Origin: an uncultured Acetobacteraceae bacterium
Lineage (GTDB): Bacteria; Pseudomonadota; Alphaproteobacteria; Acetobacterales; Acetobacteraceae
NCBI GenBank assembly: GCA_964247035.1
Contig: CAXTTH010000001.1
Span: forward strand, 1-39,200
Direction of reading: 5' to 3'
Length of the DNA: 39,200 bases
Both the position numbers and the translations under genes were made by a program. Shown one piece after another: positions 434-31,238 of the stretch. Position 1 is the stretch's first letter. Each line of letters starts with the position of its first letter. Below the pieces are notes generated by a model. It searched no databases. It was not told the DNA's origin and worked only from the letters and a program-made list of their open reading frames with translations.

Positions 434-625
434 CGTCTAGCTACCTCCAGACGCATGATCTACTCAGCATAGACGATGGCATCCGGGTTCCCCCCAAGCG
501 GTGCTATCTCCGTTGAGGTAGACTCTTGTGGCATCCTCGCGCGGAACGCTTCTGACGTGCCATTAGGGTTGCTTCCGGTATTCTGGAACAGTAGCGTTCC
601 GGGGTCTAGACCCTTTCGGAACAAA
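434..625. promoter_or_regulatory. Probable res site and tnpR promoter region
   Basis: Non-coding, lower-GC region directly upstream of a serine resolvase inside a Tn3 element. Subsites were not mapped. Confidence 0.4.
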
Positions 626-1192
626 ATGGCCTCTTACGGCTACGCACGTGTCAGCACCCTCGACCAGGATCTCACGATCCAGCGTGCGGCCCTCAAGGCG
701 GCCGGCTGCAGTGTCGTTCGCGCCGAGAAGGCAAGCGGTTCCCGCCGCGACGGGCGAACCGAGCTGCAGGTGCTGCTCGACTTCGTGCAGCCCGGTGACA
801 CTCTGGTCGTGACCCGCATCGATCGCCTTGCCCGCTCGATGAAAGACCTGCAGGACATCGTGCATGAGTTGAAGGGCCGCGGCGTGGCGCTGCGCGCAAC
901 CGAGCAGCCCGTGGACACCGGAACGGCGGCTGGCAAGGCGTTCCTCGACATGTTGGGCGTGTTTGCCGAGTTCGAGACCAATTTGCGGCGCGAGCGTCAG
1001 CTTGAAGGTATCGCGCTTGCCAAGACACGCGGCGTCTACAAGGGGCGCAAGCCCAGTGTTGACGCTGCCGAGGTCAGGCGTCTGCGACATGAGGAGAAGC
1101 TGGGACCCGCCGCCATAGCGCGCCGGCTTGGCATCGGCCGTACCAGCGTCTACCGCGCTCTTGAGACCGCGATGGTCGTCGGCCGCGTGTGA
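626..1192 (+). CDS. tnpR: Serine recombinase (resolvase) with C-terminal HTH
   Basis: MASYGYARVST catalytic Ser motif, VVTRIDRLARS, AEFE..LRRERQ..GI..AK..G...GRK, and C-terminal HTH (AIARRLGIGRTSVYR). Start taken at ATG 626. Confidence 0.95.
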   Translation: MASYGYARVSTLDQDLTIQRAALKAAGCSVVRAEKASGSRRDGRTELQVLLDFVQPGDTLVVTRIDRLARSMKDLQDIVHELKGRGVALRATEQPVDTGTAAGKAFLDMLGVFAEFETNLRRERQLEGIALAKTRGVYKGRKPSVDAAEVRRLRHEEKLGPAAIARRLGIGRTSVYRALETAMVVGRV

Positions 1193-1225
1193 TGAGTAGC
1201 ACCCTCACGCGTTTCGGCTGAGCGG

Positions 1226-3627
1226 GTGCCAGTCTCGTTCCTGACCGCCGAACAGGAACGGCGCTATGGCCGGTATGCCGGCGAACCGAGCGCGGAGCAG
1301 CTCGCGCGGCATTTCCACCTCGACGATGCCGATCGCGAGCTGGCCGGCACCAAGCGTTGGGATCACATGCGGCTCGGGTTCGCCGTCCAGCTCGGCACCG
1401 TTCGCTTCCTCGGCGCGTTTCTGGATGAGCCTGCCGCTGTCCCTGGCGGGGTCGCAGGCCATTTGGCCCAGCAGCTTGGCATCCCCAATGCGGGCTGCCT
1501 GACCAAATATGCCACGGCCCGGGGTCGATGGCTGCATTCGGCGGAGATCAAGGAGCGCCACGGCTACCGCGAGTTCGCCGATCCTTCCGTCCACTTCCGC
1601 CTGGCGCGCTGGCTTTACGCGCTCTGCTGGACCGGCACGGACCGGCCGAGCGTGCTGTTCGACCGCGCGACCGTCTGGCTGGTGACGGAGAAGGTGCTGC
1701 TCCCGGTGCGTCCGCTCTTGAGCGTCTGGTCGCCCGCATTCGCGCCCGGGCCGCCCGTCGCCTCTGGCGCACGCTCGCCCGTGATGTGACCCACGAACAG
1801 CGCGCGAAGCTTGATGCCCTGCTGATCGCAGGAGAGGGCGGCCGTCCCAGCCCGCTCGACCGCCTTCGGGACGGTCCCTACCTACGCAGCGGTGCCGAGC
1901 TGTCCCGCGCCGTCAGTCGCCTGGACGAGATCCGGGTGCTGACGCGGGGCCTGCCAACCACCGATCACGTGCCGCCGGGCCGGGTCACAGCGCTGGCCCG
2001 GTTTGCAACCGTCGCCAAGGCCCAAGCTGTAGCGCGCATGCCGCTGGAGCGGCGCACGGCGACGCTGCTCGCCTTTGTGCGGACACTTGAGGCGACCGCG
2101 CAGGACGATGTGCTCGACCTGTTCGACATCGTGGTCACCGCCCTGTTCACCGACGCGGCCAAAGTCGGCAAAAAAGCGCGGCTGCGCACTCGCCGCGATC
2201 TCGACGCCGCCGCTCTCCAGCTCCGCCAAGCTGGCGGGGTGCTCATGGACGACGCGGTAGAAGACGGCGCCGTGCGCGGGGCGGCCTTCGCAATCGTGCC
2301 GCGCGCGATGCTCGCGGCAGCGTTGGAGCAGATCGACGCCATCGTGCGACCGCCCGGCGATCTCTACTTCCTCGAACTTCGCGCCCAGCCCGGCAAGCTG
2401 CGCTTCCTGCCGGCCATGCTGAGGTCCGTCTCCCTCGGTGCCACGCCGGCCGGACAGCCAACGCTGGACGCGGCGCGCCATCTGCGCAGCACAGATGGGC
2501 GCGGCCCGGCTCCGTCGGCACCGCTCGGCTTCGTGCCGAGTGGCTGGAAGCGACAGGTCAAGGCCGCCGATGGCGGCGTGGACAGCCTTGGTTACCGGCT
2601 CTGCCTGCTCGACGCGATGCGGATCGGGATCCGGCGGCGTGACCTGTTCGCGTCACCCAGCCTGCGCTTTGCCGACCCGCGGATCGGCCTTTTGGCGGGT
2701 TCAGCCTGGGAAGCGGCGCGGCCGTCTATCTGCCGCACCCTGGGCCTCTCGACCGACGGGCCGGCCGAGATTGCGCGAATGGCCGAGCGCCTGGACGCCG
2801 CCTATCAGGATACCGCGGCGAACCTGCCCAAGAACGCCGCCGTGCAGGTGGACGGCGGCGAGCTGGTGCTGTCCGCCCTCGACAAGCTGGAGGAGCCGCC
2901 CAGCCTGGTCGCGCTCAAGGCGGCCGTTGCCGCACGCATGCCGCTGGTGGATCTGCCCGAACTGCTGCTCGAAATGCACGTTCGCACCGGCTTTGCCGAC
3001 GGGTTCACCCATGCCAGCGAAGGCGGCGCACGGGCCGGCGGCGTTGCCACCAGCCTATGCGCGGTGCTGCTGGCCGAAGCGTGCAACACCGGCTTCGAGC
3101 CGCTCATCCGGCGCGACAACGCGGCGCTGCGCCGATCACGGCTGAGCTGGGTTCGGCAGAACTACATCCGGGCTGAGACGCTCACCCGGTCGAACGCCGT
3201 CCTGGTCGCGGCCCAGAACCGCATCCCGCTCGCCCGCGCGTGGGGCGGCGGTGATGTGGCCTCTGCGGATGGACTGCGCTTCGTGGTGCCAGTCCGCACG
3301 ATCCATTCGGGGCCGAACCCGCGCTACTATGGCCAGGAACGTGGGGTGACGTTCTACAACCTGGTCTCTGACCAGTTCACCGGGCTTAACGGCATCACCG
3401 TGCCCGGCACTCTGCGCGACAGCCTGACCCTGCTCTCGGTCGTGCTGGAGCAGCAAACCGAGCTGCAGCCGACCGAGATCATGTCCGACACCGGGGCCTA
3501 CACCGACACGATCTTCGGCATCTTCCATCTGCTCGGCTACCAGTTCAGCCCGCGTCTGGCTGACATAGGTGGCACCAGGTTCTGGCGCGTGGGCCGGAAG
3601 GCCCATCCGCGTAAAAGCGCACGATAA
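1226..3627 (+). pseudogene. tnpA: Tn3-family transposase, frameshifted and 3'-truncated
   Basis: The N-terminus (RLGFAVQLGTVRFLG) is in the 1226 frame and continues after a 1-nt shift near 1703 (KVLLP/GASALERL) in the 1528 frame. ASADG and SDT aspartates are present, but the protein ends at RKA (~3603) before the catalytic Glu. Confidence 0.92.
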
Positions 3628-4188: not shown

Positions 4189-4212
4189 GATCTGTGATCA
4201 CAAGAGTTGACA
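4189..4212 (+). promoter_or_regulatory. Putative GntR operator next to a -35 hexamer, upstream of the GMC gene
   Basis: GATCTGTGATCAC(A) is followed 5 nt later by TTGACA. The same 13-mer plus TTGAC recurs at 8314. Confidence 0.65.
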
Positions 4213-4319: not shown

Positions 4320-5954
4320 ATGGCAGACTACATCATTGTGGGCGGCGGCTCCGCAGGATGCGTGCTGGCAAACCGGCTATCGGCCGACCCGTCGGTGACG
4401 GTCACGCTGGTGGAGGCCGGCGGCTGGGATCGCAGCCCGTTTATCCACATGCCGGCCGGCTACTTCCAGCTGATGCGCACCGGCCAGCTTGACTGGCGCT
4501 ACCACACAGAGCCGCAGGAGCACCTCGATGGACGGCGACTATTCTGGCCGCGCGGCAAGGTGATGGGCGGCTCTAGCTGCGTTAACGGAATGATCTACAT
4601 CCGTGGGCACGCGTCGGATTACGATCGGTGGGCCCAGTTTGGCAATCTCAACTGGTCCTACGCGGAATGCCTGCCGTATTTTCGCCGTTCTGAAACCTGG
4701 CAGGAGGGCCAAGGCGAGTTCCACGGCACGGACGGGCCGGTCAAGACTAGTCGCTACGGGCTGCGCCACCCCTTGGCGAAAGCGTTCGTCGAGGCCGGAC
4801 GACAGGCCGGCTATCCCGTGACCTCGGACTTCAACGGCAGCCAGCAGGAGGGTTTCGGGCCGTGCGACAGCACGCTCGACCGCAGTGGCTGGCGGGCGAC
4901 TCGGTCAAATGCCGCGCACGCCTACATCCGCCCGGTAAGGCAGCGCAAGAACTTGACGGTCATCACTGACGCTTTGGTCGGCCGCGTCATCATTGAGAAA
5001 GGCCGGGCACGGGGCATCGAATACCGGCATCGCCGTCGGACGCACAAAGCCTGGGCCGACCGCGAGGTCATCCTGTGCGGCGGTACGGTTAACTCGCCGC
5101 AGCTCCTGCAGCTCTCCGGCGTCGGTGAGCCTGCGCATCTACATAGCCTCGGCATCAACATCGTCGCCGATGTACCCGGTGTCGGCCAGAACCTGCAGGA
5201 CCACTTGGCCGTTGGGCTTAAGCAGCGTGTGTCGCAGCCAATCTCGATGTTGCCCTACGTGCAGCCGGTCAAGGCCGCGCTCTCGCTCGGCCAGTACATG
5301 ATCGGCGCTGGCGGGCCCGGTGCCTATCACGGTATTGAGGCGCTCGCCTTCGTCAAAACCCGCTTGGAGCTCGTGGCACCCGATCTTCAATACCATTTCG
5401 TCATGATCATGTACGACGACCATGGCCGCTCGATTATTCCGGAGCATGGCTTCATGCCCTACTTCAATGTCACGCGCCCGGAGAGCCGCGGCTCAATCCA
5501 AATCAGGTCCCGCGACCCGGCCGCTTACCCGGTCGTCCAGCCAAACTATTTTGCGCGACCCGAGGATATGCGGGTGATGCGGGAAGGTATCAGAATTAGC
5601 CGCGACATCGTCGCGCAGCATGCGTTCGATCCATATCGCGGTGCCGAGTACGCGCCCGGGGCGGAGGTGACGACGGATGCTGAGATTGACGCCTATTTAC
5701 GCGCCAGGGTAGAGTCAATCTACCATCCGGTCGGCACCTGCAAGATGGGTTCGGACACGATGGCGGTAGTTGACGACCGCTTGCGCGTGCGCGGCGTAGA
5801 GGCGCTACGAGTGGTCGACGCATCGGTGATGCCGACGCTGGTTACCGGCAATACGAACGCGCCGACAATCATGATCGCCGAACGGGCCGCAGACTTCATC
5901 CGCGGCACTGTGGCGGCCAGCGTTCAGCATAGTTCCGAAAGCCTGGTAGCCTAA
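4320..5954 (+). CDS. GMC family FAD oxidoreductase (choline dehydrogenase-like)
   Basis: GGGSAG FAD motif, GKVMGGSSCVNGMIYIRG, YHPVGTCKMG, GNTNAP (His/Asn pair), and GAGGA RBS. Confidence 0.95.
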   Translation: MADYIIVGGGSAGCVLANRLSADPSVTVTLVEAGGWDRSPFIHMPAGYFQLMRTGQLDWRYHTEPQEHLDGRRLFWPRGKVMGGSSCVNGMIYIRGHASDYDRWAQFGNLNWSYAECLPYFRRSETWQEGQGEFHGTDGPVKTSRYGLRHPLAKAFVEAGRQAGYPVTSDFNGSQQEGFGPCDSTLDRSGWRATRSNAAHAYIRPVRQRKNLTVITDALVGRVIIEKGRARGIEYRHRRRTHKAWADREVILCGGTVNSPQLLQLSGVGEPAHLHSLGINIVADVPGVGQNLQDHLAVGLKQRVSQPISMLPYVQPVKAALSLGQYMIGAGGPGAYHGIEALAFVKTRLELVAPDLQYHFVMIMYDDHGRSIIPEHGFMPYFNVTRPESRGSIQIRSRDPAAYPVVQPNYFARPEDMRVMREGIRISRDIVAQHAFDPYRGAEYAPGAEVTTDAEIDAYLRARVESIYHPVGTCKMGSDTMAVVDDRLRVRGVEALRVVDASVMPTLVTGNTNAPTIMIAERAADFIRGTVAASVQHSSESLVA

Positions 5955-5955
5955 G

Positions 5956-6080
5956 GAAGAAGTGTTCTTCTAAAAAGAAGCAAAAGAGGTTTGTCTCCTA
6001 ATGTGCACTTTGCTGACATGGACAGACAAAGCTTAGCGGATCGAAGCCTTTGCTTCTTCTTTGAAGAAATAGAACTCTTC
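5956..6080. repeat. AT-rich imperfect long inverted repeat (intergenic REP/MITE-like hairpin)
   Basis: TTCTTCTAAAAAGAAGCAAAAG (5965-) pairs with CCTTTGCTTCTTCTTTGAAGAA (-6068), with an inner TTTGTCT/AGACAAA pair. Confidence 0.6.
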
Positions 6081-6125
6081 ATACATCGATATCCATCAAT
6101 CTCCGTTTTAGGACACCCCCCGAAA

Positions 6126-7433
6126 GTGGCACACATCCTTAAGGCCGGACGCACGCAAGCGGAACAGGCGGATGAGAGCAGAAAAGTTCGTGCGCTAGTT
6201 GAGCAGATGCTGCTCGACATCGAACGCCGCGGCCAAGCCGCCGTGCGCGAGTTATCCACCCGATTTGACGGTTGGGACCGTGATGACTTTCGCCTAACCC
6301 ATAACGAGATTGCCGGCTGTGTCGCAGAGCTCTCCGCCGACGAGGTCGACGACATCCATTTCGCGCAGACGCAGATCCGTAATTTCGCCGAGCACCAGCG
6401 CGGTGCTTTGCTTGACCTTGAGGTGGAGACGCGGCCTGGCATCATTCTTGGCCATAAGAACATTCCGGTAAACTCGGTCGGCTGCTACGTGCCCGGCGGA
6501 AAGTATCCTCTGCTTGCCTCGGCACACATGTCAGTCGTGACCGCCAAGGTCGCGGGCGTGCCGCGCGTTGTCACCTGCGCGCCGCCGTTCAAGGGGCGGC
6601 CGGCCGCCACCATCGTCGCCGCCCAGCATCTTGCCGGTGCGGACGAGATCTACTGTCTCGGCGGCGTGCAGGCGGTCGGTGCGATGGCGCTGGGGACGCA
6701 GAGCATGGAGAGTGTCGACATGCTCGTCGGCCCTGGTAACGCCTACGTCGCCGAGGCCAAGCGACAGCTGTTCGGTCGCGTCGGCATCGACCTGTTTGCC
6801 GGCCCAACGGAGACGCTGGTGATTGCCGACGACACCACTAGTCCCGAGTTCTGCGCGACCGACCTGTTGGGCCAGGCCGAGCACGGGGTTAACTCGCCGG
6901 CCGTGCTGCTGACGACCTCCGAGCAACTCGCACGCGACACACTCGTCGAGATCGAGCGGCTACTTAAGATTTTGCCGACCGCCGACGTCGCTCGGCAGGC
7001 CTGGGCCGACCACGGTGCGATCATTCTCTGCGACGACGAGGAGGAGATGATCTGCGAGGCCGACCGAATCGCCTCCGAGCACGTGCAGGTGATGACGCGC
7101 GATCCCGGCGTGTTCCTGGCGCGGATGACGAACTATGGCGCGCTGTTTCTCGGCCCGCGCACCAATGTGGCCTATGGCGACAAGGTCATCGGCACCAATC
7201 ACACGCTGCCGACCAACGGGGCGGCGCGCTACACTGGCGGCCTTTGGGTCGGCAAGTTCCTGAAGACGGTAACCTACCAGCGCATCGAGACCGATGCGGC
7301 AAGCGCCGAGATCGGCGCGTTCTGCTCGCGGCTCTGCATGCTAGAGGGCTTCGTCGGCCATGCCGAGCAGGCAAATGTCCGGCTGCGGCGCTATGGCGGC
7401 AGCAACGTTCCCTATGCTACTGCCGCGGTGTAA
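6126..7433 (+). CDS. Histidinol dehydrogenase-family paralogue (HpsN-like, Zn/NAD-dependent)
   Basis: [51 protein letters not shown]. Start taken at GTG 6126 after AGGA. No his operon genes lie nearby. Confidence 0.9.
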
Positions 7434-7452
7434 TACGGAGCTTATGAGCGCA

Positions 7453-8235
7453 TCAGCCCGTCGCGTTGGGGGAGCGCCTACTACTGGCCGCACGACGGCG
7501 CGGCGACTGGGCAATGGGATCGCAGACCTGCTTTTTTCCGCCCGCATCATCGGCCGCGTTGATCGCCTGGGACTTCGACCAGAACCATTTTGCTGTTGTC
7601 TCGATGTCGTCACGCAGGGAGCGGGCCGCGCCCTCGCCATCCCCGGCCTCCAGCGCGGCCAGGATACGGACGTGCGAGGCCGCTGCGTCGAAGAACGCGT
7701 CGATGCCGCGCCGTTCCGCCGCTAATGCCGCAAGGTATGGGCCGCTACGAAGCCAAAGCATCTCGATGATCTCAATCAACGTCGGGTTGCCACAGGCCTT
7801 GTAGATCAGGAAGTGAAACGCCTGGTTATGCTGTAGGATACCCATCGCGTCCGAGCGTGACAGCGCCCATTTCATTGCGTCGTTCGACTTGCGCAACCTC
7901 TCAATTAGCACGGTGTCGGCCAACTCGGCGGCGAGCTCCGTCGCCCGGCCCTCGACCATGACGCGGATCGGCATCACCTCGCCGAACCGCTCGGCGGTCA
8001 GGACCGGAATTTTGAAGGTTCGATTGGATTGTTGGGTCAGCGCCTTTTCCGCGACCAGGCGTTTGATCGCCTCGCGCACGGGCATTTCACTCGTGCCGAA
8101 ACGGGCCGCAAGCGCGCGTATGGTCAACGGCTCACCCGGCGTGAACACGCCCTGACGGATGTCTGAGCGGACTCGGTCGTAGACGCGCTCCTGCACGCTT
8201 CTCACGTCGATTGACTGGTGCTTGGGCTCCGTCAC
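7453..8235 (-). CDS. GntR-family (FadR/FCD) transcriptional regulator
   Basis: N-terminal wHTH (LAARFGTSEMPVREAIKRL) and FCD motif (NQAFHFLIY...N...H). Divergent from the ABC operon. Confidence 0.93.
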   Translation of the reverse strand: MTEPKHQSIDVRSVQERVYDRVRSDIRQGVFTPGEPLTIRALAARFGTSEMPVREAIKRLVAEKALTQQSNRTFKIPVLTAERFGEVMPIRVMVEGRATELAAELADTVLIERLRKSNDAMKWALSRSDAMGILQHNQAFHFLIYKACGNPTLIEIIEMLWLRSGPYLAALAAERRGIDAFFDAAASHVRILAALEAGDGEGAARSLRDDIETTAKWFWSKSQAINAADDAGGKKQVCDPIAQSPRRRAASSRRSPNATG

Positions 8236-8313
8236 GTCCGATCCTCGGAAAATGATTATGTATGCACGAAAAGAGCGACCGCCAGTCTACGTCAACCAAA
8301 GCCGGCATCCTAT

Positions 8314-8336
8314 GATCTGTGATCACGCAGTTGACG
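8314..8336 (+). promoter_or_regulatory. Putative GntR operator and -35 between gntR and the ABC operon
   Basis: (T)GATCTGTGATCAC palindrome followed by TTGACG. The identical 13-mer is at 4189. Confidence 0.65.
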
Positions 8337-8471
8337 GCTGGGGCGCTGTCTGCCAACGTCGCAGTAACAATGAGCTCGGCAGGACGAACAATCCGGTAGC
8401 TTGGCACCCAAGATCGGCAGAAGCAGCAGCTCGAAACAAGTGAAATACTGCCAGCATCAGGGAGACGAACA

Positions 8472-9572
8472 ATGAAACAACCGCGCAGTGAGTTCGGGCG
8501 GCCCAGCCGCCGCAACATTCTGAAGCTGATGGGTGCTGCTTCCGGCACCGCAGCCATGGCCGGTGGCTCTGCTTACGCAGCGGACCGCCCACTACTCGGC
8601 TTCAGCAACAAGAGCCTAGACTTCTACTTCTTTCGCATCCTGCAGGAGGCCGCACAGCGCGCCGCAGCCGGGAAATCCTGGGATTTCCAGGCAGTGAACG
8701 CTAACTTCAACAATACCATACAGATCCAGCAATGGGACTCGTTGCTGCTTCGCCGTCCCATCGCAATGATTGGCGACACCGTCGACAGCCAGGCAATGGT
8801 CAGTGCGGTGAAGAAGGCTAATTTTAGCAGCATTCCCGTCGGCATGGTCGACAGTCTGACCATCAGCGGCAACGTCGCCGTCTCCGTCGCCTTTGACAAC
8901 AACCAGGGCGGTGTGATGGCCGCGAACGCCGTCATTGACCTGCTGAAGAAGAAGTATAGCGGCCAGGCCAAGGGGACGGTGCTGAACTGCTACGGCTCGC
9001 TGCAAAGCGATGCCTGGCGGGCGCGCAAGGTCGGCTGGGACGCGACGTTCGTGAAGTATCCCGATATCAAGATGCTGGACCGGCCGACCGAAGGGCTGCT
9101 CAAGAATATGCTGAGCGTCACCGTCGACACGCTGTCCGAGTATCCCGACCTCGACGCTGTGCACGCACCAAGCGACACGCCCGCGCGCGGCGTTGTGACG
9201 GCGCTAAAGCAGCGCAACAAGTGGTTCAAGATCGGCGACCCGAAGCACGTGATCTTCGTCACCATAGACGGCGAGCCAATCGGCCTGCAGTGGATCAAGC
9301 AGGGCTACCAGGACGCCGACATCTCGCAGGACCCGATAGCCTACAGCGAGATCGCGGTAGAGATGCTGGCGAAATACGCTATTAACGGCGAGGCGGTACC
9401 GCTCGGTCGCTACGAGAACAAGAAGTATTATTGGGAAGCCGGCGAGTTCGTCCAGGGCGTGAGCGGCCCGCGGCTGATCATCCCGCCCTTCGTCGTCAGC
9501 CCGTCCAATGCAGACGACCCACGCCTCTGGGCCAACGTGGCGTCGAACGACTGGGGCATCGCCTATGAGTAG
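8472..9572 (+). CDS. Sugar ABC transporter substrate-binding protein (RbsB-like), Tat signal
   Basis: Twin-arginine SRRNILK signal ending AYA, plus class I PBP features (FF..L, DN..GG..AA, VTIDG, QDP). Confidence 0.9.
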   Translation: MKQPRSEFGRPSRRNILKLMGAASGTAAMAGGSAYAADRPLLGFSNKSLDFYFFRILQEAAQRAAAGKSWDFQAVNANFNNTIQIQQWDSLLLRRPIAMIGDTVDSQAMVSAVKKANFSSIPVGMVDSLTISGNVAVSVAFDNNQGGVMAANAVIDLLKKKYSGQAKGTVLNCYGSLQSDAWRARKVGWDATFVKYPDIKMLDRPTEGLLKNMLSVTVDTLSEYPDLDAVHAPSDTPARGVVTALKQRNKWFKIGDPKHVIFVTIDGEPIGLQWIKQGYQDADISQDPIAYSEIAVEMLAKYAINGEAVPLGRYENKKYYWEAGEFVQGVSGPRLIIPPFVVSPSNADDPRLWANVASNDWGIAYE

Positions 9573-11130
9573 CGGTTGGCCGGTGGGGGGAGGCGTGGCG
9601 ATCGACAGCATCATTGAGGTCCGCAATGTCGAGAAGCGGTATGGCGGCGCGTTTGCCCTGAAGGGCGTATCACTCACGGTCGCTCGGGGCACGGTACACG
9701 GCTTGCTCGGCGAAAACGGCGCGGGCAAATCGACGCTGGTGCGCATCATCGCCGGGCTCACGCCACTAAGCGGCGGCGACGTGCTGCTCGACGGGGTGGA
9801 CGTCGGCGTTGCCGACGTGCGCGAGATGGAGAGCCGCGGCGTGTTCCTGGTGACGCAGGAACCGATGATTGTCGAGCCGATGACGGTCGCCGACAACCTA
9901 ATGCTCGGCCGCTGGCCGGCCGTGCGCGGCTTCGTGCGGCAGGGCGAGATGCTGCGCCTCTCCGCCTCGTTCCTGCACGACGCGCGGCTCGATCCGCGTC
10001 GCCGGGCCGGCTCGCTGACCGCGGTCGAGAAGCGCAAGCTGAATATCCTTCGTGCCCTGCACAGCGGCGGACGCTTTATCATCCTCGACGAGCCGACGAC
10101 GGCGCTGACGGTCGACGACAAGTCGCAGCTCTTCGAGTTCATGCGCCGGCTGGTGCATCAGGGCGTCTCGTTCCTGTTTATTTCGCACTACAACGAGGAG
10201 ATCCTCGAGATCTGCGACGAGGTCTCGGTGCTGCGCGACGGTCGGATGATCGCCGAGCGACAGACGGTCTCGCACCTCAACTCCGACGCGCTGAGCGAGA
10301 TGGTCGTCGGGCGCGACGTGCGGCTGTTTCACCGCGTGCTGTCGGCCGCAGAGAAGCCTAGGGCCTGGTCGTTCCGCGTCCGGGCACCAGGCTTGCAGGT
10401 GGACCGGTTGGAGCTGCGTCGCGGCGAGATCGTCGGGTTTGCCGGCCTGCCCGGCTCCGGAGCGAGGGAGCTCGGGCGCGCCATCTACGGCTTGCTGCCG
10501 GGTGCGAAAGGCGAGATCGAGGAGGGCGGTGTCTCGCGCCCCCTGCCGCACGATCCAGCCGAGGCGCTGCGGTCCGGCATCGCGTTTCTTTCCGAGGACC
10601 GGTTGCGCGACGGCGTGGTCCCAATCGGCTCGATCGGCCAGAACATGGGGCTTTCTAGCCTGCCAGCGCTATCCCGCTTCGGCATGATGTCGCGCCCCGC
10701 CGAGGTCCAACTCATCGAGCGGTTCACCCGGCTGTTCGCAATCAAGGCGCGCTCGGCCACCGCGCCGATCTCCTCGCTCAGCGGCGGCAATCAGCAGAAG
10801 GTTTTGCTTGCCCGCCTGGTCGCTACCCAGCCGCGCCTCGTCATCCTTAATGAGCCGACCCGTGGCATCGACGTCGGCGTTAAGGAAGAGGTGCATCGCC
10901 TGGTGGACGGCCTGACGCGGCAGGGCGTTCCGGTGATCGTCATTACCAGCGACCTCGACGAGATGCTGCGCGTGGTCGACCGGGTGGCCCTGTTCGTCGG
11001 TGGCCGGATCTCCTCCGTCGTGCCCGCGAGCGGCCTGACCAAGGAGGACGTCTTCGCCGCCGCCTACTCTACGGGCCAGCCGCCTATGTGCCCCGCTACG
11101 CCCATGCCGATCAGAGGAGTTGCATCATGA
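9565..11130 (+). CDS. Sugar ABC transporter ATP-binding protein (RbsA-like, two NBDs)
   Basis: GENGAGKST, ILDEPT, LSGGNQQK, EPTRGIDVG. The start is uncertain (ATG 9565 or GTG 9595). Confidence 0.92.
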   Translation: MSSGWPVGGGVAIDSIIEVRNVEKRYGGAFALKGVSLTVARGTVHGLLGENGAGKSTLVRIIAGLTPLSGGDVLLDGVDVGVADVREMESRGVFLVTQEPMIVEPMTVADNLMLGRWPAVRGFVRQGEMLRLSASFLHDARLDPRRRAGSLTAVEKRKLNILRALHSGGRFIILDEPTTALTVDDKSQLFEFMRRLVHQGVSFLFISHYNEEILEICDEVSVLRDGRMIAERQTVSHLNSDALSEMVVGRDVRLFHRVLSAAEKPRAWSFRVRAPGLQVDRLELRRGEIVGFAGLPGSGARELGRAIYGLLPGAKGEIEEGGVSRPLPHDPAEALRSGIAFLSEDRLRDGVVPIGSIGQNMGLSSLPALSRFGMMSRPAEVQLIERFTRLFAIKARSATAPISSLSGGNQQKVLLARLVATQPRLVILNEPTRGIDVGVKEEVHRLVDGLTRQGVPVIVITSDLDEMLRVVDRVALFVGGRISSVVPASGLTKEDVFAAAYSTGQPPMCPATPMPIRGVAS

Positions 11131-12137
11131 CGAGTGCCAGGTCGCCGGCGGTGTCCGAGGTGCTGACCCTGCCGGCCCGCACGCGCCGGTCGGAGTTCAC
11201 GCTCCATCTGCTGCTGAAGAATATCGTCTGGGTCTGGCTGGTGGCACTCGTCGCTATCTTCGGAGGCCTGAACAGCTTCTTCTGGTCGACCGCGAACCTG
11301 CAGAACATCATGACGCAGGCGACCGTGCTCGGCCTGCTCGCGCTCGCCGCCTCGCTGCCGCTGCTGGTCGCCGAGATCGACCTCTCGATCGCCGGCAACC
11401 TCGGCATCTCCTCGATGCTCGGGGCGCTGACGCTGTCCGGCACCGGGCTGCCGGCGCTCGCCTGTGCCGGCATCGGCATCGGCGCGGCGACGCTGATCGG
11501 CTTCGTCAACGGTTTTTGCATCACCCGGCTGCGCATGGTGTCGTTGATCGAGACGCTTGGCATGATGATCATTCTGCAGGGCGGCCTGCTCGCCATCACC
11601 CAGGGCTCGACATTCACCAACTTTCCGACCTCCTACCTGTGGGTTGGGCAGACAACGCTTGGCGGCTGGCCGGTGATGCCGGTGGTGCTGTTGCTCGCCT
11701 TTGTCTGCATGGCGGTGCTGCTCCGTCGCTCGGTGTTTGGCCGCCAGCTTTACGCGACCGGCGGAAACGCCGCGGCCGCGCACGTAGCCGGCATCCGCGT
11801 CGACCGGGTGAAAATTTTGGCCTTCACCCTGTCCGGGTTCCTCGCAGGCCTTGCGGGCTACCTGCTCGCCTCGTGGCAGATGGCGATCACCTCGGACCAG
11901 GGCGAGGGCTTCCTGCTTTACTCAATCGCGGCCCCAATCATCGGCGGCGTTAGCGTGTTCGGCGGCCGCGGCAATGCGCTCGGCATTCTTGGCGGCGTGC
12001 TGCTGATCACTGTGATCCATGTCGGGCTCGCGATTATCAACGTGCCGTCCTTCTACGTCGACATGATCGGCGGCTTCCTGATCTTCATCGCCGTCGCGGT
12101 CGACGCGCTGCGGGTCGGCGTCATCGGAAGCCGCTGA
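11127..12137 (+). CDS. Sugar ABC transporter permease (RbsC-like)
   Basis: Hydrophobic protein with IDLS, FGRQLYATGGN..AA..AGI and IAAPIIGGVSVFGGRG. ATGA overlaps the ATPase stop. Confidence 0.93.
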   Translation: MTSARSPAVSEVLTLPARTRRSEFTLHLLLKNIVWVWLVALVAIFGGLNSFFWSTANLQNIMTQATVLGLLALAASLPLLVAEIDLSIAGNLGISSMLGALTLSGTGLPALACAGIGIGAATLIGFVNGFCITRLRMVSLIETLGMMIILQGGLLAITQGSTFTNFPTSYLWVGQTTLGGWPVMPVVLLLAFVCMAVLLRRSVFGRQLYATGGNAAAAHVAGIRVDRVKILAFTLSGFLAGLAGYLLASWQMAITSDQGEGFLLYSIAAPIIGGVSVFGGRGNALGILGGVLLITVIHVGLAIINVPSFYVDMIGGFLIFIAVAVDALRVGVIGSR

Positions 12138-12176
12138 CCTGCAAGGAGCTAAGATCCAAACTTAGGAGAGCAAGCA

Positions 12177-13673
12177 ATGACCTACATCGGCAAGGATAGC
12201 GTAATCAGCCCCGCGAACCGCGAATTTCTCAAGCGGCGGCACCGGCTGCTGATCGGCGGCGAGTGGTCGGACGCTCGTTCGGGCAAGACCTTCGCCGTGT
12301 TCAACCCCTCGGACGGCAAAGAAATCGCACGAGTCGCCGAGGGCGGCGTGGAGGACGTCGACCGTGCTGTCGTCGCCGCTCGGCGCGCCTTCGAGGACGG
12401 ACCGTGGGCCAGGATGAAACCGGTCGAGCGCGGCAAGCTCGTCTGGCGGCTCGCCGATTTATTGGAGGCGCATGCCGACGAGCTCGCCCAGCTCGAAAGC
12501 ATCGACAACGGCAAGCCGGTCACCGACGCGCGCAACAGCGATGTCACCTTCTCCTACGAGCTGCTGCGCTACATGGCCGGCTGGGCGACCAAGCTGACCG
12601 GCGAGAGCATCCCGGTTTCGCTGCCCGGTGACTGGCTTTGCTACTCGCTGCGGGAGCCGGTCGGCGTCGTCGGCCAGATCATCCCGTGGAACTTTCCGTT
12701 GATGATGGCGACGTGGAAGATCGCGCCAGCGCTCGCTGTCGGCTGCACGATCGTTCTCAAGCCGGCGGAGCAGACGCCGCTCACCGCCCTTCGCCTCGGC
12801 GAGCTGGCACAGGAGGCAGGCTTGCCGGACGGCGTGCTGAACGTGGTCACCGGCGATGGCACGGCGGGTGCGGCGCTGGCCGCCCACCCGGACGTCGACA
12901 AGGTCGCGTTCACCGGCTCGACCGAGGTCGGCAAGCTCGTCGTCAAGGCGGCTGCCGGCAACCTCAAGAAGGTCAGCCTTGAGCTCGGCGGCAAGTCGCC
13001 CGTCATAGTGTTTCCGGACGCCGACATGGACGTGACGATCCCGGGCACCGCCTCGGGCATCTTCTTCAACAGCGGGCAGTGCTGCACCGCCGGATCGCGC
13101 ATGCTCGTCCACAAGCGGGTATTTGATAAGGTGATGGCGGGGCTTGCCGAGCAGGTGCCGCGGTTCAAGGTCGGTCCGGGCCTTGATCCGGAGACGCGCA
13201 TCGGCCCGCTCGTCTCTCAGGAGCAGCTTGACCGCGTGACCTCCTACATGGAGGCCGGCAAGCGCGACGGTGCCGAGGTGGTGACCGGTGGCGAGCGCTG
13301 GGGCTCGGAGGGCTACTTCGTGACCCCCACCGTATTCGCCAATACTAATCCGCAAATGTCCGTCGTGCGCGAGGAGATCTTCGGCCCCGTCATCTGTGCG
13401 ATGCCGTTCGACGACGACGACCTAGCGCGCATCGCCGCGGAGGCAAACGCTACGCCGTTTGGGCTCAGCGCGAGCATCTGGACCAGGGACATCGGCGTCG
13501 CTCACAAGCTCGCGCGCAAGATCAAGGCCGGCACGGTCTGGATCAACGCGCACCTGCCGAACGACGTCGCGCTGCCGTTCGGCGGCTACAAGCAGTCCGG
13601 TTGGGGCCGCGAGATGGGGCGCGAGGCGCTCGAGCTCTACACCGAGGTCAAAGCGGTCGCCGCTAACCTCTAG
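12177..13673 (+). CDS. NAD(P)-dependent aldehyde dehydrogenase
   Basis: IIPWNFP, FTGSTEVG, LELGGKSP, NSGQCC (catalytic Cys), EEIFGPV, and AGGAG RBS. Confidence 0.96.
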   Translation: MTYIGKDSVISPANREFLKRRHRLLIGGEWSDARSGKTFAVFNPSDGKEIARVAEGGVEDVDRAVVAARRAFEDGPWARMKPVERGKLVWRLADLLEAHADELAQLESIDNGKPVTDARNSDVTFSYELLRYMAGWATKLTGESIPVSLPGDWLCYSLREPVGVVGQIIPWNFPLMMATWKIAPALAVGCTIVLKPAEQTPLTALRLGELAQEAGLPDGVLNVVTGDGTAGAALAAHPDVDKVAFTGSTEVGKLVVKAAAGNLKKVSLELGGKSPVIVFPDADMDVTIPGTASGIFFNSGQCCTAGSRMLVHKRVFDKVMAGLAEQVPRFKVGPGLDPETRIGPLVSQEQLDRVTSYMEAGKRDGAEVVTGGERWGSEGYFVTPTVFANTNPQMSVVREEIFGPVICAMPFDDDDLARIAAEANATPFGLSASIWTRDIGVAHKLARKIKAGTVWINAHLPNDVALPFGGYKQSGWGREMGREALELYTEVKAVAANL

Positions 13674-13684
13674 TCGGCCGAGCC

Positions 13685-13712
13685 GGCCCGGGCACAGCGT
13701 TGCGCCCGGGCC
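13685..13712 (+). terminator. GC-rich hairpin between the ALDH and SDR genes
   Basis: GGCCCGGGC-N10-GCCCGGGCC. There is no immediate U-tract, so it may be a stability or pause element rather than a terminator. Confidence 0.35.
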
Positions 13713-13742
13713 TCGACCGGCACCAGCTTTTAGGAACGCGGC

Positions 13743-13960
13743 ATGCAGATCGAACTGCGCAACCAGCGCGTACTAGTCACGGCGGGAGCGTCCGGCATCG
13801 GGCTTGCGATCGGCCTGGCATTTGCCCAGTCCGGCGCCAGGGTCCACGTGTGCGACGTCGACGAGGAGCGGCTCGCGCGGGCGCGCCAGGAAGGCCTTGC
13901 AGCAAGTATCGCGGACGTTGCGTCGGCCGACCAGGTTGATGCCCTTTACAATCGGATTCA
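13743..13960 (+). pseudogene. Short-chain dehydrogenase/reductase, 5' fragment truncated by IS5
   Basis: VLVTAGASGIGLAI Rossmann motif and ADVAS..QV. The frame runs into an IS end after about 73 codons, with no YxxxK. Confidence 0.9.
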
Positions 13961-14801
13961 GAGCCTGTTTGATCACGCGGCCATGTATTCGGAACGCTGG
14001 TAGGCGCGCAATAGGCGATGGCAGTTGGCGAGGCTGATGGCGTCCTCGGCGGCTGCTGGGCTTTGCTCCAGGTTGCGGGTCAGGCGGTGCCAGCGGTTGG
14101 CCAGCGTGCCGAACGTTGCCTCGATGCGCCAGCGCAGCGGCAACGGCCTGAAGCCCGTCACGTCGGCGTCGCGGGTTGTGACCTGCACGTCCACGCCGTG
14201 TTCCGTCGCGGCCTGCGCCATGCGTGGGCCGACGTAGATGCCATCGACCTTGACGCGCTCGATGGACCAGCCGTCCCCAGCCGCAAGCGCCAGCAGCGCG
14301 GCCACCGGCTGCGTGTCGTGCGTGTTGGCCGCCGTGATCAGGATCGCCAGCACGAAACCCAGCGAGCACGTCAGCACATGGCGCTTGATGCCGAGCAGCT
14401 TCTTGTTGCCGTCCACGCCGCGCGGTCCCGCCTGCGGCCCCGACGACACGCTCTGGCTGTCCAAAATGGCCGTCGTCGGCTCGGGCGCCCGGCCCTGCCT
14501 GGCGCGCACGGCCCGTGTCAACAGGCCAGCGATGTCAGTTCAGAGGCCGTCGGCCCGGAAGCGGTCGTGCCAGCTCCGCACGGTCTGCCAGGAACCGAAC
14601 TCCTTGGGCAGGAAACGCCAGGGGCAGCCCGCCTTCTCCAGATACAGGCAGGCGTTGACGAGTTCGCGCAGGTCCGCCGTCAGCGTCGCGTAGCCGCGCA
14701 GCACGGGTTCAGTCGTCTGCCACTCCGCATCCGTAAGATCGCTCGGGTAGCACTGGAACAAGCGAACACGGGGACATACACATGAAACCCGGCTGTAGTG
14801 C
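13961..14801 (-). mobile_element. IS5-family (IS1031-like) element, inactive, upstream end missing
   Basis: End GAGCCTGTTTGATC after TCA and a transposase on the minus strand. The other IR is replaced by an IS630 end. Confidence 0.8.
13973..14761 (-). pseudogene. IS5-family transposase with an in-frame nonsense codon
   Basis: YPSDLTDAEW, GCPWRFLP, ILDSQSV, GIKRH, VDGIY, RWRIEATFG. TGA at 14540-14542 sits where Trp is expected (DGL*TDIA). Confidence 0.9.
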
Positions 14802-15151
14802 TAGAGCGCGTCCTTACCGACCAGAGTTGAAGGGCTTGCCCGACGCGGCGCTGATCTGATTCAAGCTGCTGGCTGGGTTTGGAGGCCAGCGCTCATGGCC
14901 AAGACGTATGGAGAGGACTTGCGCGGTCGGGTGATCGCGGCGGTGGACGGCGGCATGTCACGCAGTACCGCAGCCGTGCGGTTTGAGGTTGGCAAGGCGA
15001 CGGCGATTGCCTGGCTGCGGGCCTGGCGCGACGACGGGCGCAGCGCTGCCAAGCCGAAGGGGGGCGACACCTGCTCGCACCGGATCGAGGCGTTCAGCGC
15101 GGTGATCCTGGCGGCTGTAAAGGCTCGCAAGGACATCACCCTGGACGAGCT
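14802..15151 (+). mobile_element. IS630-family fragment (left end plus N-terminal HTH, CDS from 14895)
   Basis: TAGAGCG end at a TA dinucleotide, and MAKTYGEDLRGRVIAAVDGGMSRSTAAVRFEVG...DITLDEL. Cut by a Tn3 end at 15152. Confidence 0.85.
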
Positions 15152-17081
15152 GGCCCGTTCCCAACAGTCGTGACACCAGCCGCCATTTCGAGTCATGCGA
15201 GAGCGGCGATGCGGGTTCGCATGTCGAGTTCCTGGCGGCCGTAGGGGTTGACGTGTTCCCAGATCAGCGGGGTGAGCGCCTTGCGGTCGCGATCCGTCAG
15301 CCGGCCGGCCCAGTGCGGCCGCGCGAGCACCTGCTGGAGCATGAGCGTGTTCACGAACACCATGCAGTTCTGCAGCAGGTGCAGGCTGAGCATGCTGACT
15401 TCATGGTCTTCGCGGCGGTTGCTCGACATCTCGCCGCGGCGAGCGAAGAACACGAAGTCGTTGGCGCTGTTCCAGTGCTCGACCACGTTCAGCCCGTCGT
15501 TGATCTCGCGTCGGACCGCCTCGTCCGAAAGGTAGCGGCAGAGAAAGCAGGTCTTGATGGCCTTCCCCAGCTCCAGCAGCGCCTTGTAGGTTGGGTGCTG
15601 GACGTTCTCGCGGGTGAAGCGCCGCAAGATCACATCGGCCTCCGCCGTGCCCAGGCGCAAGGCGGTCGCGTACTTGACCATCTCGTCGTAGTGCCGGCGG
15701 ATCAGCTCCCAGTCGATCGGCCGCGACAGCACGGGCTGCAGGCGGGGGTAGAGGTCGGGCTGTCCGGCATCGGGCCGATAGAGGCGCTGCTTGCCGATGC
15801 GCTTGAGCCGGGGCATGAGCTGGAAGCCAAGCAGCTTGGTGAACGCAAACGCCACGACCGACTGCCCGTGGCTGTCCACGTATTGCCGGTCCACCGCCAT
15901 CTCGGTGCAGTGGCGCAGCACGCCCTCGATCATGCTGGCCACCTCGGACGAGGAGGGCGACTTCAGCTGCGAATGGAGGCACAGCGAGTTGCGTTCGACG
16001 TGCCAGTAGATCATCACCCCGCGCCCGCCATACCGGACGTGCCGTTGAGTGGTGAGGTTCTGGTCCCAGGCGCCGAAGTGCTTGCTGTCGGACGCGCAGG
16101 CCGTGGTGCCCTCGCCCCAAAGCAGCGGATTGCGCGCGCGCAGCGTGCCGTTGGTCACCACGGCGATGGCCTCGCGCAGCCGGTCCGGCGTGAGGTAGCG
16201 CCGGCGCACGTAGGCAAGGTCGCGGTAGCTCGGGCCGCCGTCGCGCGAGGTGTCCAGCCGCCGCAGGCCCGCATTGGTGCCGAGGCCATACAGGCACAGC
16301 AGCAGCCGCGGCCGCAGCTCGGTGCGGTCAAGGGTCTCATAAGCCGTGGGGCTGCCCAGCGCGTCGGTGAAGCCGAGCCGCAGGTCGGCTTCCTTGACCA
16401 TGTCGAGCAGGCCCGTCATCGGCCAGTCCGCCGTCACCTCGGCTTTGACGGCGTCGATGTTCTCCGGGTCGGACCGGGCCCGCAGCGGCGACACCGTGAT
16501 CCAGCCCCCACGACGGTTCGTGATCCTGACATGCGGGTTGCGCGGCAAGCCGGCATCGAGCCGGGCAAGGCCCGCGCGCATGTCCGCTTGCAGGCCGGCG
16601 ATGAACGTGTCGGCGTCGAGCGGCAGCCCGAGCGCCTCGTAATACGGCGCGCGCCGGTCCGCGAAGTCGGCGGGCAGGTCTTCATCCGGATTGCGGTAGC
16701 GGTCGGCGCCGATCACCCAGACCTCCTTGGAGCGCAGCCGCTCGCGCAGCGCCTCCAGCACGCAGATCTCGTAGGTGATCCGGTTGACGCGCGGCTTGCC
16801 CTTGGGGCCGGGGTCGAGCACAGCATCCCGCCAGAGCGGGCGCACGACGCCCTCCATCGGCACGGTCTCGTGGGCGGGGATGTGGCGCTGCCGCGTTGCG
16901 GCATACCGCCGGACCAGCGCGAGCGCCTCGATCACCGGCCGATGCACGGCGTTGTTGGAGCGGAAGTCGAGGGCATCGAGGAGCTTGGGCACCATGCGCC
17001 GGTAATGCCCGGCATAGGAGCTGCGGATCGTGGTGCGCAGGCTCGTGCGGTAGGTCGGCCCGGACTGCCACTCGCGGACTA
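15152..17081 (-). mobile_element. Tn3-family transposon fragment (one end plus the 3' two-thirds of tnpA)
   Basis: A ~40-bp end GGCCCGTTCCCAACAG...TTTCGAG lies just after the tnpA stop. The 5' part was removed at an IS5 insertion in CTAG (17079-17082). Confidence 0.8.
15193..17081 (-). pseudogene. tnpA: Tn3-family transposase, N-terminally truncated
   Basis: [15 protein letters not shown] and LNVVEHWN give the DDE triad. The frame continues upstream of 16995 ([12 protein letters not shown]...) to the IS5 junction. Confidence 0.9.
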
Positions 17082-30516: not shown

Positions 30517-30558
30517 GGCCTGTGCGGCTGAGCGGAACAGAAAAGCAGCATAAGGCTT

Positions 30559-31107: not shown

Positions 31108-31238
31108 GAGAGGTCCCCCGGGGCTTCGCAAAACATATTGCTAAAAGGACGGTTTCCGCATAGGTGTTCTGCGAAGAAAAAGGCGTGTGATTTCAGTTGG
31201 CATCCTCTCTGCCGCAAATGTCCTAAGTTCCGCACGAC
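31108..31238. promoter_or_regulatory. res site and divergent tnpR/tnpA promoters
   Basis: AT-richer intergenic region between divergent resolvase and transposase, the Tn3 arrangement. Confidence 0.6.

What the first reader, a model, noticed from the sequence alone, without database searches (positions are those of the whole stretch)
4320..13960. Uncharacterised catabolic pathway: HisD/HpsN-like dehydrogenase + GMC oxidoreductase + ALDH + SDR + sugar-type ABC importer under GntR
Seen: four different oxidoreductase families cluster with a CUT2-type importer whose binding protein has a Tat signal. The HisD-family protein keeps QAEH, EH and the C-terminal His but reads GDK rather than the GDY of biosynthetic HisD, and no his genes are nearby. 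Known: HisD and HpsN (sulfopropanediol 3-dehydrogenase) carry out 4-electron alcohol-to-acid oxidation, and GMC plus ALDH do the same in two steps. Inference: this is a degradation route for a sugar-like or polyol substrate with more than one oxidisable CH2OH group. I do not recognise it as a described pathway.
Basis: partly seen in the sequence, partly recalled or inferred. Interest (0 to 1): 0.72.

Follow-up and report, generated by a model that had tools for sequence, protein, structure and literature searches.

The report
Orphan deoxy-polyol catabolic cassette, partly truncated
This is a real gene cassette on a plasmid-like contig, conserved in scattered alphaproteobacteria, that likely imports a small deoxy-polyol and oxidises it to an acid; its histidinol-dehydrogenase-like enzyme belongs to an uncharacterised third branch of that family, predicted to turn 3,4-dihydroxybutyrate into malate, and the last gene of this copy is cut by an insertion sequence.

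Summary
The cluster is real. Seven intact genes (GMC, HisD-like, GntR, three-part CUT2 importer, ALDH) lie among transposases on a plasmid-like contig. The SDR is only a 73-codon stub cut by an IS5-type element. The set is co-conserved in several gene orders: 8 of 11 loci with a close binding-protein ortholog carry the HisD-like gene, against 0 of 10 with the sister binding protein. [quoted passage not shown] GntR, SDR, BKACE and the operator (GATCTGTGATCAC) are homologous to the published deoxyribonate oxidation module, but the SDR lies outside its subgroup (44-47% identity). The HisD-like protein is neither HisD nor HpsN: motif GKYPL, HpsN's sulfonate His lost, its Lys kept (GDK is shared with HpsN). 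Best reading, untested: a neutral 2-deoxy-polyol is oxidised by GMC and ALDH to a 2-deoxy-3-hydroxy acid, then to a dicarboxylate by the HisD-like enzyme or cleaved by SDR/BKACE. My best guess is 1,2,4-butanetriol to 3,4-dihydroxybutyrate to L-malate. I found no description in ten literature searches. The scan noted the same HisD-like clade in other clusters on other DNA, but not this arrangement.

The parts
4189..4212 (+). Predicted GntR operator GATCTGTGATCAC abutting a TTGACA (-35-like) box upstream of the GMC gene
   Evidence: 2 matches in the window vs 0.07 expected, 0 of 100 shuffles reach 2; conserved upstream of GMC and/or SBP in 7 of 9 cluster loci examined; core shared with the deoxyribonate-type promoters
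4320..5954 (+). GMC oxidoreductase, choline-dehydrogenase-like, no signal peptide; likely oxidises a primary alcohol to the aldehyde
   Evidence: PF00732/PF05199, NF002550 above cut-off, betA below; YHPVG and GNTNAP motifs; 70-87% identical in cluster copies
6126..7433 (+). HisD/HpsN-family Zn/NAD dehydrogenase of a third clade (motifs [13 protein letters not shown]); GTG start
   Evidence: HpsN 389 bits vs HisD at most 257; tree; model pLDDT 89.6 with best match HpsN 9CP7, TM 0.94
7453..8235 (-). GntR/FCD regulator, homolog of the deoxyribonate-cluster GntR
   Evidence: PF00392+PF07729; 53-84% to cluster orthologs, 31% to the L148 regulator
8314..8336 (+). Second predicted operator plus TTGACG box, between gntR and the importer operon
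8472..9572 (+). CUT2 (ribose-fold) solute-binding protein with twin-arginine leader; ligand unknown
   Evidence: PF13407; 23 orthologs at 70-88% identity, then a gap to 66% or less; best PDB profile match only E 1e-35
9565..11130 (+). CUT2 ABC ATPase with two domains (start uncertain between 9508 and about 9595)
11127..12137 (+). CUT2 permease
   Evidence: PF02653
12177..13673 (+). Aldehyde dehydrogenase, phenylacetaldehyde-dehydrogenase-like; catalytic motifs LELGGK and GQCC present
   Evidence: NF045735 best but below cut-off; PDB 4O5H best
13743..13961 (+). 5' stub (73 codons) of an SDR of the deoxyribonate-dehydrogenase family; lacks the catalytic half
   Evidence: 49-56% identical to intact cluster SDRs over the stub; PF00106 positions 2-71 only
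13961..14800 (-). IS5-family element that interrupts the SDR (far end approximate)
   Evidence: DDE_Tnp_1 at 13973-14521; sequence
476..3627 (+). Resolvase and broken Tn3 transposase bounding the cassette on the left
   Evidence: PF00239, DUF4158 and a truncated DDE_Tnp_Tn3 (profile 1-218 of 389)

Best explanation
This GntR-operator-marked cassette likely imports a small neutral 2-deoxy-polyol and oxidises it, through GMC and ALDH, to a 2-deoxy-3-hydroxy acid, which the HisD-like enzyme is predicted to oxidise at its terminal CH2OH to a dicarboxylic acid. My committed guess is 1,2,4-butanetriol (or 2-deoxytetrose) to (S)-3,4-dihydroxybutyrate to L-malate. Shown: the genes, their co-conservation in shuffled orders, the conserved operator, the separate clade, and the homology of GntR, SDR and BKACE to the deoxyribonate module. 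Inferred step 1: the CUT2 importer takes up the neutral compound. Inferred step 2: the cytoplasmic GMC oxidises the CH2OH next to the deoxy carbon, and the ALDH, whose family acts on R-CH2-CHO, gives the acid. Inferred step 3a: the HisD-like enzyme binds X-CH2-CH(OH)-CH2OH on Zn as HpsN does, with X a carboxylate, and carries out the 4-electron oxidation. Inferred step 3b, only in fuller copies: the SDR oxidises C3 and BKACE cleaves the beta-keto acid with acetyl-CoA to acetoacetate plus an acyl-CoA. In this window branch 3b is dead, so only 3a could run. The broad scheme (a 2-deoxy-3-hydroxy acid as hub) I put near 0.6; the figure given is for the four-carbon version.
For: Co-conservation: of 11 loci with an SBP ortholog at 74% or more, 9 have the GMC (70% or more), 8 the HisD-like gene, 5 an SDR ortholog and 4 a BKACE; the three without the HisD-like gene are short contigs or end beside the SBP. 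Controls: 0 of 10 loci with the sister SBP (56-66%) have the GMC or HisD-like gene; 0 of 5 loci with GMC at 56-64% have the HisD-like gene or the SBP ortholog. Deoxyribonate link: PMC6365646 describes GntR + SDR + BKACE with the palindrome GTGATCAC. Locus L148 matches that paper's primers with 0-2 mismatches and has GntR-SDR-BKACE-lactonase-MFS-MFS. Cluster SDRs are 44-47%, BKACE 65% and GntR 31-38% identical to it, and the operator core aligns. HisD-like site: in HpsN the sulfonate contacts Zn, His126 and Lys353 (PMC11382572). The window protein keeps the Lys and all catalytic and Zn residues but has Leu129 for His126; none of the 35 clade rows has that His. A two-oxygen carboxylate would need only Zn and Lys (inference). 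L-cysteate mimics R-sulfolactate in HpsN, which by CIP rules maps to (S)-3,4-dihydroxybutyrate and L-malate (inference). No kinase, aldolase or lactonase is conserved in the cluster, and copies without SDR/BKACE keep GMC + HisD-like + importer intact (window, L040, L041, L043), as expected if the product is a central metabolite. Cluster HisD-like genes are not one clade (p-AU 1.8e-5), which suggests an interchangeable activity.
Against: There is no biochemical, genetic or expression evidence, and no docking was possible. The SBP has no close liganded relative, and its sister clade sits with xylulokinase, RpiA and an FAH-family gene, which points to five-carbon ligands. BKACE and SDR fit C5 deoxyribonate at least as well as a C4 acid. 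The HisD-like clade occurs in very different clusters (aromatic, acyl-CoA, aldolase/cupin, tetronate kinase/PdxA), which one substrate may not explain. Several copies are decaying (frameshifted HisD-like gene in L001 and L110, broken ALDH in L042 and L045, cut SDR in L046), so retention patterns may reflect decay. L040-L043 and L047 are near-copies and count as one lineage. 1,2,4-butanetriol is usually treated as non-natural (titles). The group for the AU test was named after I had seen the first tree.
Confidence: 0.35

Rival explanations
1. The substrate is a five- or six-carbon 2-deoxy sugar or alditol (2-deoxyribose, 2-deoxyribitol, a 2-deoxyhexose). GMC and ALDH replace the molybdenum dehydrogenase and lactonase of P. 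simiae. SDR and BKACE are the main route, and the HisD-like enzyme oxidises the terminal CH2OH of the acid or of the cleavage fragment.
For: GntR, SDR, BKACE and the operator are homologs of the deoxyribonate module; ribose-fold SBP whose sister clade lies in pentose clusters; one clade member lies beside a tetronate-type kinase and PdxA.
Against: Cluster SDRs fall outside the 7-row subgroup (support 89) that holds L148, and differ in the substrate loop (SSTAGRIGMPMRTPY vs ASVAGRLGYAWRTPY). No lactonase or glycerate kinase is in the cluster. Copies lacking SDR and BKACE keep the other genes intact.
Confidence: 0.27
2. The substrate is another multi-alcohol compound (an amino alcohol, a cyclic ether or heterocycle with CH2OH groups, or a synthetic polyol), and the cassette is a patchwork in which the three dehydrogenases oxidise different CH2OH groups.
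For: Mobile context; repeated exchange of the HisD-like gene; GMC relatives in the PDB act on choline, chloramphenicol, pyridoxine and HMF.
Against: It does not explain BKACE, which needs an unsubstituted beta-keto acid, the SDR family or the shared operator. Orthologs are 70-88% identical across distant hosts, so the unit is not recent.
Confidence: 0.18
3. Whatever the ancestral route, this copy is a decaying remnant: without SDR and BKACE it only converts the substrate to an acid that is not used further.
For: SDR cut and BKACE not found in the assembly; comparable breaks in L001, L042, L045, L046 and L110.
Against: Seven genes and both operators are intact; an independent lineage (L040, L041, L043) keeps the same core; the assembly is only 71% complete, so BKACE may lie elsewhere.
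Confidence: 0.13
4. The HisD-like protein is an HpsN, and the cluster degrades DHPS or another sulfonate.
For: HpsN is the nearest solved relative in sequence and fold; GDK is shared.
Against: It lacks the G-R-Y-A/S-H motif that defines HpsN; separate clade; no hpsO/hpsP orthologs in the window and no sulfonate lyase or ComDE among the conserved neighbours.
Confidence: 0.05
5. It is a redundant biosynthetic histidinol dehydrogenase.
For: Passes the TIGR00069 cut-off (439 vs 244 bits); no full-length HisD was found in this incomplete assembly.
Against: HpsN-type proteins are annotated hisD too. It lies outside the HisD rows (support 100) and has GDK instead of GDY. All 8 same-genus genomes with a full-length clade member also hold a separate match at about 40% identity, one of them in pieces.
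Confidence: 0.02

Closest known systems
Oxidative deoxyribonate pathway of Pseudomonas simiae WCS417 and Paraburkholderia (PS417_07240-07265; PMC6365646)
   Same: GntR with a GTGATCAC operator, an SDR of the same family (44-47%), BKACE of the same subfamily (65%); beta-hydroxy acid to beta-keto acid to cleavage
   Different: CUT2 ABC importer instead of MFS; GMC + ALDH instead of Mo-dehydrogenase + lactonase; an added HisD-like enzyme; SDR outside the deoxyribonate subgroup; SDR cut and BKACE not found in this genome
HpsN, (R)-DHPS 3-dehydrogenase (PDB 8V35, 9CP7, 8WWE; PMC11382572, PMC11131964)
   Same: Fold (TM 0.94), Zn ligands, catalytic Glu-His, Lys after the Zn-binding Asp; 44-49% identity
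   Different: GKYPL instead of GRY[AS]H (no sulfonate His); conserved His134; separate clade; no hpsOP or sulfonate genes nearby
HisD, L-histidinol dehydrogenase
   Same: Family, Zn site and catalytic dyad; 31-44% identity
   Different: GDK instead of GDY; outside the HisD rows; catabolic context
BKACE15 cluster of Paracoccus denitrificans (PDB 8RIO; NF053538; PMC11961710)
   Same: BKACE directly upstream of a HisD-like gene of the same clade, with GntR and an SDR of the same family; the paper states that the physiological role is unknown
   Different: Branched-chain-type ABC permease/ATPase genes, a 3-hydroxyacyl-CoA-dehydrogenase-like gene and a second SDR; no GMC, ALDH or CUT2 importer
Choline dehydrogenase / betaine aldehyde dehydrogenase (BetAB) and similar GMC + ALDH pairs
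   Same: Two-step alcohol-to-acid pair
   Different: Below the betA and BADH cut-offs; sugar-type importer; different regulator

Membership tests
HisD (biosynthetic) | Zn ligands and catalytic Glu-His | tested here: met
   Q250, H253, D352, H412, E318, H319
HisD (biosynthetic) | GDY motif and placement among HisD sequences | tested here: not met
   GDK; inside a 43-row non-HisD group with support 100 (quick tree, long branches flagged)
HisD (biosynthetic) | his-gene context | tested here: not met
   No his family among 39 window ORFs scanned
HisD (biosynthetic) | Oxidises L-histidinol and complements hisD | not testable with these tools
   Needs an assay
HpsN | G-R-Y-A/S-H motif with His126 (PMC11382572) | tested here: not met
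   G-K-Y-P-L in the window; none of 35 clade rows has the His, 4 of 4 HpsN-type rows do
HpsN | Lys353 contacting the anion | tested here: met
   K353
HpsN | hpsO/hpsP neighbours and sulfolactate-degrading genes | tested here: not met
   No ortholog in the window or cluster loci (best 26-35%), against 51-61% beside HpsN-type rows
Deoxyribonate oxidation module | GntR with GTGATCAC operator | tested here: met
   GntR identity only 31%
Deoxyribonate oxidation module | Orthologous deoxyribonate dehydrogenase (50-60% among the genetically tested ones) | tested here: inconclusive
   Same 15-row family (support 95) but 44-47% identity and outside the L148 subgroup; the window copy is a stub
Deoxyribonate oxidation module | BKACE in the cluster | tested here: not met
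   Not found in the window or the 71%-complete assembly; present in L032, L033, L045 and, broken, L046
Deoxyribonate oxidation module | Growth on deoxyribose or deoxyribonate depends on the genes | not testable with these tools
   Needs genetics
BetAB choline oxidation | TIGR01810 and TIGR01804 cut-offs | tested here: not met
   618 vs 732 and 550 vs 669 bits
CUT2 sugar ABC importer | Ribose-fold SBP, tandem ATPase, BPD_transp_2 permease | tested here: met
   one permease gene only

The most novel reading that the evidence does not exclude
The GKYPL clade is a third, widespread activity of the histidinol-dehydrogenase family: a one-enzyme, 4-electron (S)-3,4-dihydroxybutyrate dehydrogenase that makes L-malate, the carboxylate twin of HpsN. 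It is plugged into many unrelated catabolic clusters and mis-annotated as hisD. This cassette would then be a natural pathway for 1,2,4-butanetriol or 2-deoxytetrose that I could not find in print, and would suggest a natural role for the BKACE15 cluster.
Probability: 0.28. Interest if true: 0.72.

Novelty: new variant of a known kind. Interest (0 to 1): 0.52.

Why it matters
The HisD-like clade is common: 129 of 388 plasmid records with a HisD-family match have their best match at 60-80% identity, and 20 of 60 related genomes carry one at 64% or more, one of them in pieces. Wherever the records name it, it is called a histidinol dehydrogenase. This cassette ties the clade to a tractable upstream module and gives one cheap, decisive assay. 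If right, it fixes a large mis-annotation, names a sink for a C4 deoxy-acid formed when sugars degrade (recalled knowledge), and supplies an enzyme linking 3,4-dihydroxybutyrate or butanetriol to malate. The cassette itself is rare (2 of 400 family genomes complete, 1 remnant; 0 of 400 class genomes), and all its enzymes belong to known families, which limits the surprise.

Tried and rejected
Single-sequence AlphaFold gave pLDDT 41 and was not used; the 18-row alignment gave 89.6. The genome-contig scan with the SBP found only 2 sister-clade loci. The class-wide search found 0 of 400. Search for the SDR's C-terminal half in the window and genome: none. Search for a true HisD in the assembly: only a chimeric-looking fragment beside Ns on C177. 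The BKACE on the Sphingopyxis plasmid lies in an acyl-CoA cluster, not with this GMC. Literature: ten searches found no paper on this clade or cluster. My recollection that E. coli FeaB oxidises 3,4-dihydroxybutanal was not confirmed (0 papers) and is not used. PMC5445326 and PMC7105596 mention histidinol dehydrogenase only in passing (passages). Supplements of PMC9007349 (4 files) had no hit. The 5 supplements of PMC6365646 were listed but not read. The library lacks most subscription journals, and I did not see the original BKACE family paper (reference 12 of PMC6365646), which may discuss this genomic context. DHPS, choline and histidine readings were rejected as above. No complex prediction was run, as a homodimer score would not bear on the substrate.
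Full report
Observation. The window is contig C1 of a 2.5-Mb, 71%-complete assembly. RepA_C, a ParA-like ATPase, TraD, three Tn3 transposases and IS5/IS256 transposases mark it as plasmid-like. Between a broken Tn3 transposase (ends at 3627) and an IS5-family element lie GMC (4320-5954), a HisD-family gene (6126-7433, GTG start), gntR on the minus strand (7453-8235), a CUT2 importer (8472-12137), an ALDH (12177-13673) and the first 73 codons of an SDR (13743-13961). Intact orthologs of that SDR have 270-272 residues; the rest of the gene was found neither in the window nor in the assembly.

The HisD-like protein. Against solved structures it scores 389 bits with HpsN and at most 257 with HisD. 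A model from an 18-row alignment (pLDDT 89.6) matches HpsN 9CP7 best (TM 0.94). Among 60 related genomes the hits fall into tiers at 64-79%, 46-52% and about 40% identity. A 58-row quick tree places the window protein in a 35-row clade (support 99), apart from four HpsN-type rows (100) and from the HisD rows. One HpsN row comes from a locus with TRAP, SDR, Zn-ADH and comDE genes. The careful search did not finish and long HisD branches were flagged. PMC11382572 (passages and section 2.4 read) separates HisD (G-S-A-P-L) from HpsN (G-R-Y-A/S-H) and shows the sulfonate held by Zn, His126 and Lys353. The clade reads G-[KR]-[YF]-P-[LM], lacks that His in 35 of 35 rows, keeps the Lys in 35 of 35, and has a His at position 134 in 34 of 35. 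It is therefore neither HisD nor HpsN, though it should work like both: Zn-bound X-CH2-CH(Y)-CH2OH oxidised by two NAD+. Keeping the Lys while losing the His is what a carboxylate in place of a sulfonate would predict; this is my inference, not a result. The carboxylate twin of DHPS is 3,4-dihydroxybutyrate. Because L-cysteate mimics R-sulfolactate in HpsN, the bound form maps to the S acid and the product to L-malate.

Co-conservation. The SBP has 23 relatives at 70-88% identity and then a gap to 66% or less. I obtained 11 loci with an ortholog at 74% or more: the Ponticoccus plasmid p-SCP1 (L001), G375 (L032), G419 (L033) and eight metagenome contigs. Nine hold the GMC at 70% or more, eight the HisD-like gene, five an SDR ortholog and four a BKACE. 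The three without the HisD-like gene are short or end beside the SBP, and L040-L043 with L047 are near-copies. G105 adds a remnant (GMC 87%, frameshifted HisD-like gene, gntR, then a transposase). Gene order differs among the window, L001, L032, L033 and L045. None of 10 loci with the sister SBP (56-66%) has the GMC or HisD-like gene; several carry xylulokinase, RpiA and an FAH-family gene instead. None of 5 loci with GMC at 56-64% has the HisD-like gene or the SBP ortholog. L032 and L033 hold all nine genes; in L032, L033 and L045 BKACE directly follows the HisD-like gene. The cassette is rare: 2 of 400 family genomes have the SBP ortholog and 0 of 400 class genomes.

Regulation. GATCTGTGATCAC occurs twice in the window, at 4189 and 8314, each just before a TTGAC box; 0.07 matches are expected and 0 of 100 shuffles reach two. 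The same element lies upstream of GMC and/or SBP in 7 of the 9 cluster loci examined; L001 has a degenerate version and L044 none. That GntR binds it is inferred.

Link to a known module. PMC6365646 (passages, part 2 of Results, Discussion and one Methods section read) describes deoxyribonate oxidation by an SDR and a BKACE under a GntR whose proposed site is GTGATCAC. Locus L148 matches four of the paper's primers with 0-2 mismatches and reads GntR-SDR-BKACE-lactonase-MFS-MFS; I use it as a proxy for the tested genes. Against it the cluster's SDRs are 44-47% identical, BKACE 65% and GntR 31-38%, and the operator core aligns. The paper gives 50-60% between its tested orthologs. In a 17-row tree the cluster SDRs belong to the same family (95) but lie outside the 7-row subgroup holding L148 (89), with a different substrate loop. 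The chemistry (beta-hydroxy acid to beta-keto acid to cleavage) is probably shared, and the substrate may differ. The BKACE passes NF053538 and is close to BKACE15 of P. denitrificans, whose physiological role PMC11961710 calls unknown (passages).

The wider clade. In 30 hand-picked or top-scoring loci outside this cassette type, 25 have a second, KduD/HpsO-like SDR at 49% or more, often with LacI, and the other neighbours vary widely. The five cassette copies tested do not form one clade (p-AU 1.8e-5; group named after the first tree). That fits repeated recruitment of one interchangeable activity, but the variety of contexts also warns that the clade may be broad in substrate.

Mechanism. 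Shown: genes, conservation, operator, clade, homology to the deoxyribonate module. Inferred: the importer brings in a neutral 2-deoxy-polyol; the cytoplasmic, choline-dehydrogenase-like GMC and the phenylacetaldehyde-dehydrogenase-like ALDH make the 2-deoxy-3-hydroxy acid; the HisD-like enzyme oxidises its terminal alcohol to the diacid; in fuller copies SDR and BKACE give a parallel cleavage. For four carbons this is 1,2,4-butanetriol to (S)-3,4-dihydroxybutyrate to L-malate, which needs no further enzyme. That would explain why no kinase, aldolase or lactonase is conserved and why copies without SDR and BKACE keep the rest intact. Against it: the SBP's sister clade points to pentoses, deoxyribonate fits SDR and BKACE equally well, many copies are decaying, and nothing has been assayed. 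I give 0.35 to the four-carbon version, 0.27 to a C5/C6 deoxy sugar, and the rest to other substrates, a dead remnant, DHPS or histidine.

Novelty. Ten literature searches found no description of the clade or the cassette, but the library lacks most subscription journals. PMC11131964 was seen as passages only. Earlier scan notes cover the same clade in other cluster types; none matched the SBP or my word searches. Verdict: a new variant of a known kind. It is a deoxyribonate-type lower module joined to a new upper module and an uncharacterised third branch of the HisD family, here in a truncated mobile copy. Interest 0.52.

Noticed in passing
window:23920-27733 and 36880-37626: ParA-like ATPase, RepA_C replication protein and a TraD-like gene: the contig looks like most of a small plasmid whose main metabolic cargo is this cassette.
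   Followed up: partly
window:476-3627, 13961-21511, 30114-34253: Dense mobile-element graveyard: resolvase, two broken Tn3 transposases, one full-length Tn3 transposase (31239-34253), IS5 pieces, an IS256/Mutator transposase and an integrase (21710-22789).
   Followed up: no
window:35226-35984: Metallophosphoesterase gene beside the full-length Tn3 transposase.
   Followed up: no
window:37636-39042 and 24638-25471: Two ORFs of 468 and 277 aa with no Pfam match.
   Followed up: no
window:5955-6125: A+T-rich 170-bp spacer between the GMC and HisD-like genes, possibly the junction where the HisD-like gene was brought in; it is not aligned in the G105 copy.
   Followed up: partly
L002, L003, L019, L020, L037-L039: The sister SBP clade (56-66%) sits in a second recurring cluster with some or all of xylulokinase, RpiA, RpiR, HAD, an FAH-family gene and ALDHs; possibly an uncharacterised pentose or pentitol route.
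   Followed up: partly
L097:2240-11645 (Sagittula stellata plasmid): GntR-SDR-3-hydroxyacyl-CoA-DH-like-BKACE module with a TRAP transporter and a degradative HMG-CoA reductase, another 4-electron alcohol oxidase, and no HisD-like gene.
   Followed up: no
L062, L072: Two HisD-like paralogs of different clades within 10 kb (71% and 48%; 68% and 48% identity to the window protein); a fourth clade (GRYP[LI]LSA, SDK) exists.
   Followed up: partly
L115:11180-17861: HisD-like gene with LacI, a metallo-lactonase, SDR, a four-carbon acid sugar kinase and PdxA, linking the clade to tetronate catabolism.
   Followed up: partly
G000:C177:355-582: A HisD-family fragment sits next to a run of Ns inside a glmS-like reading frame, probably an assembly artefact.
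   Followed up: partly
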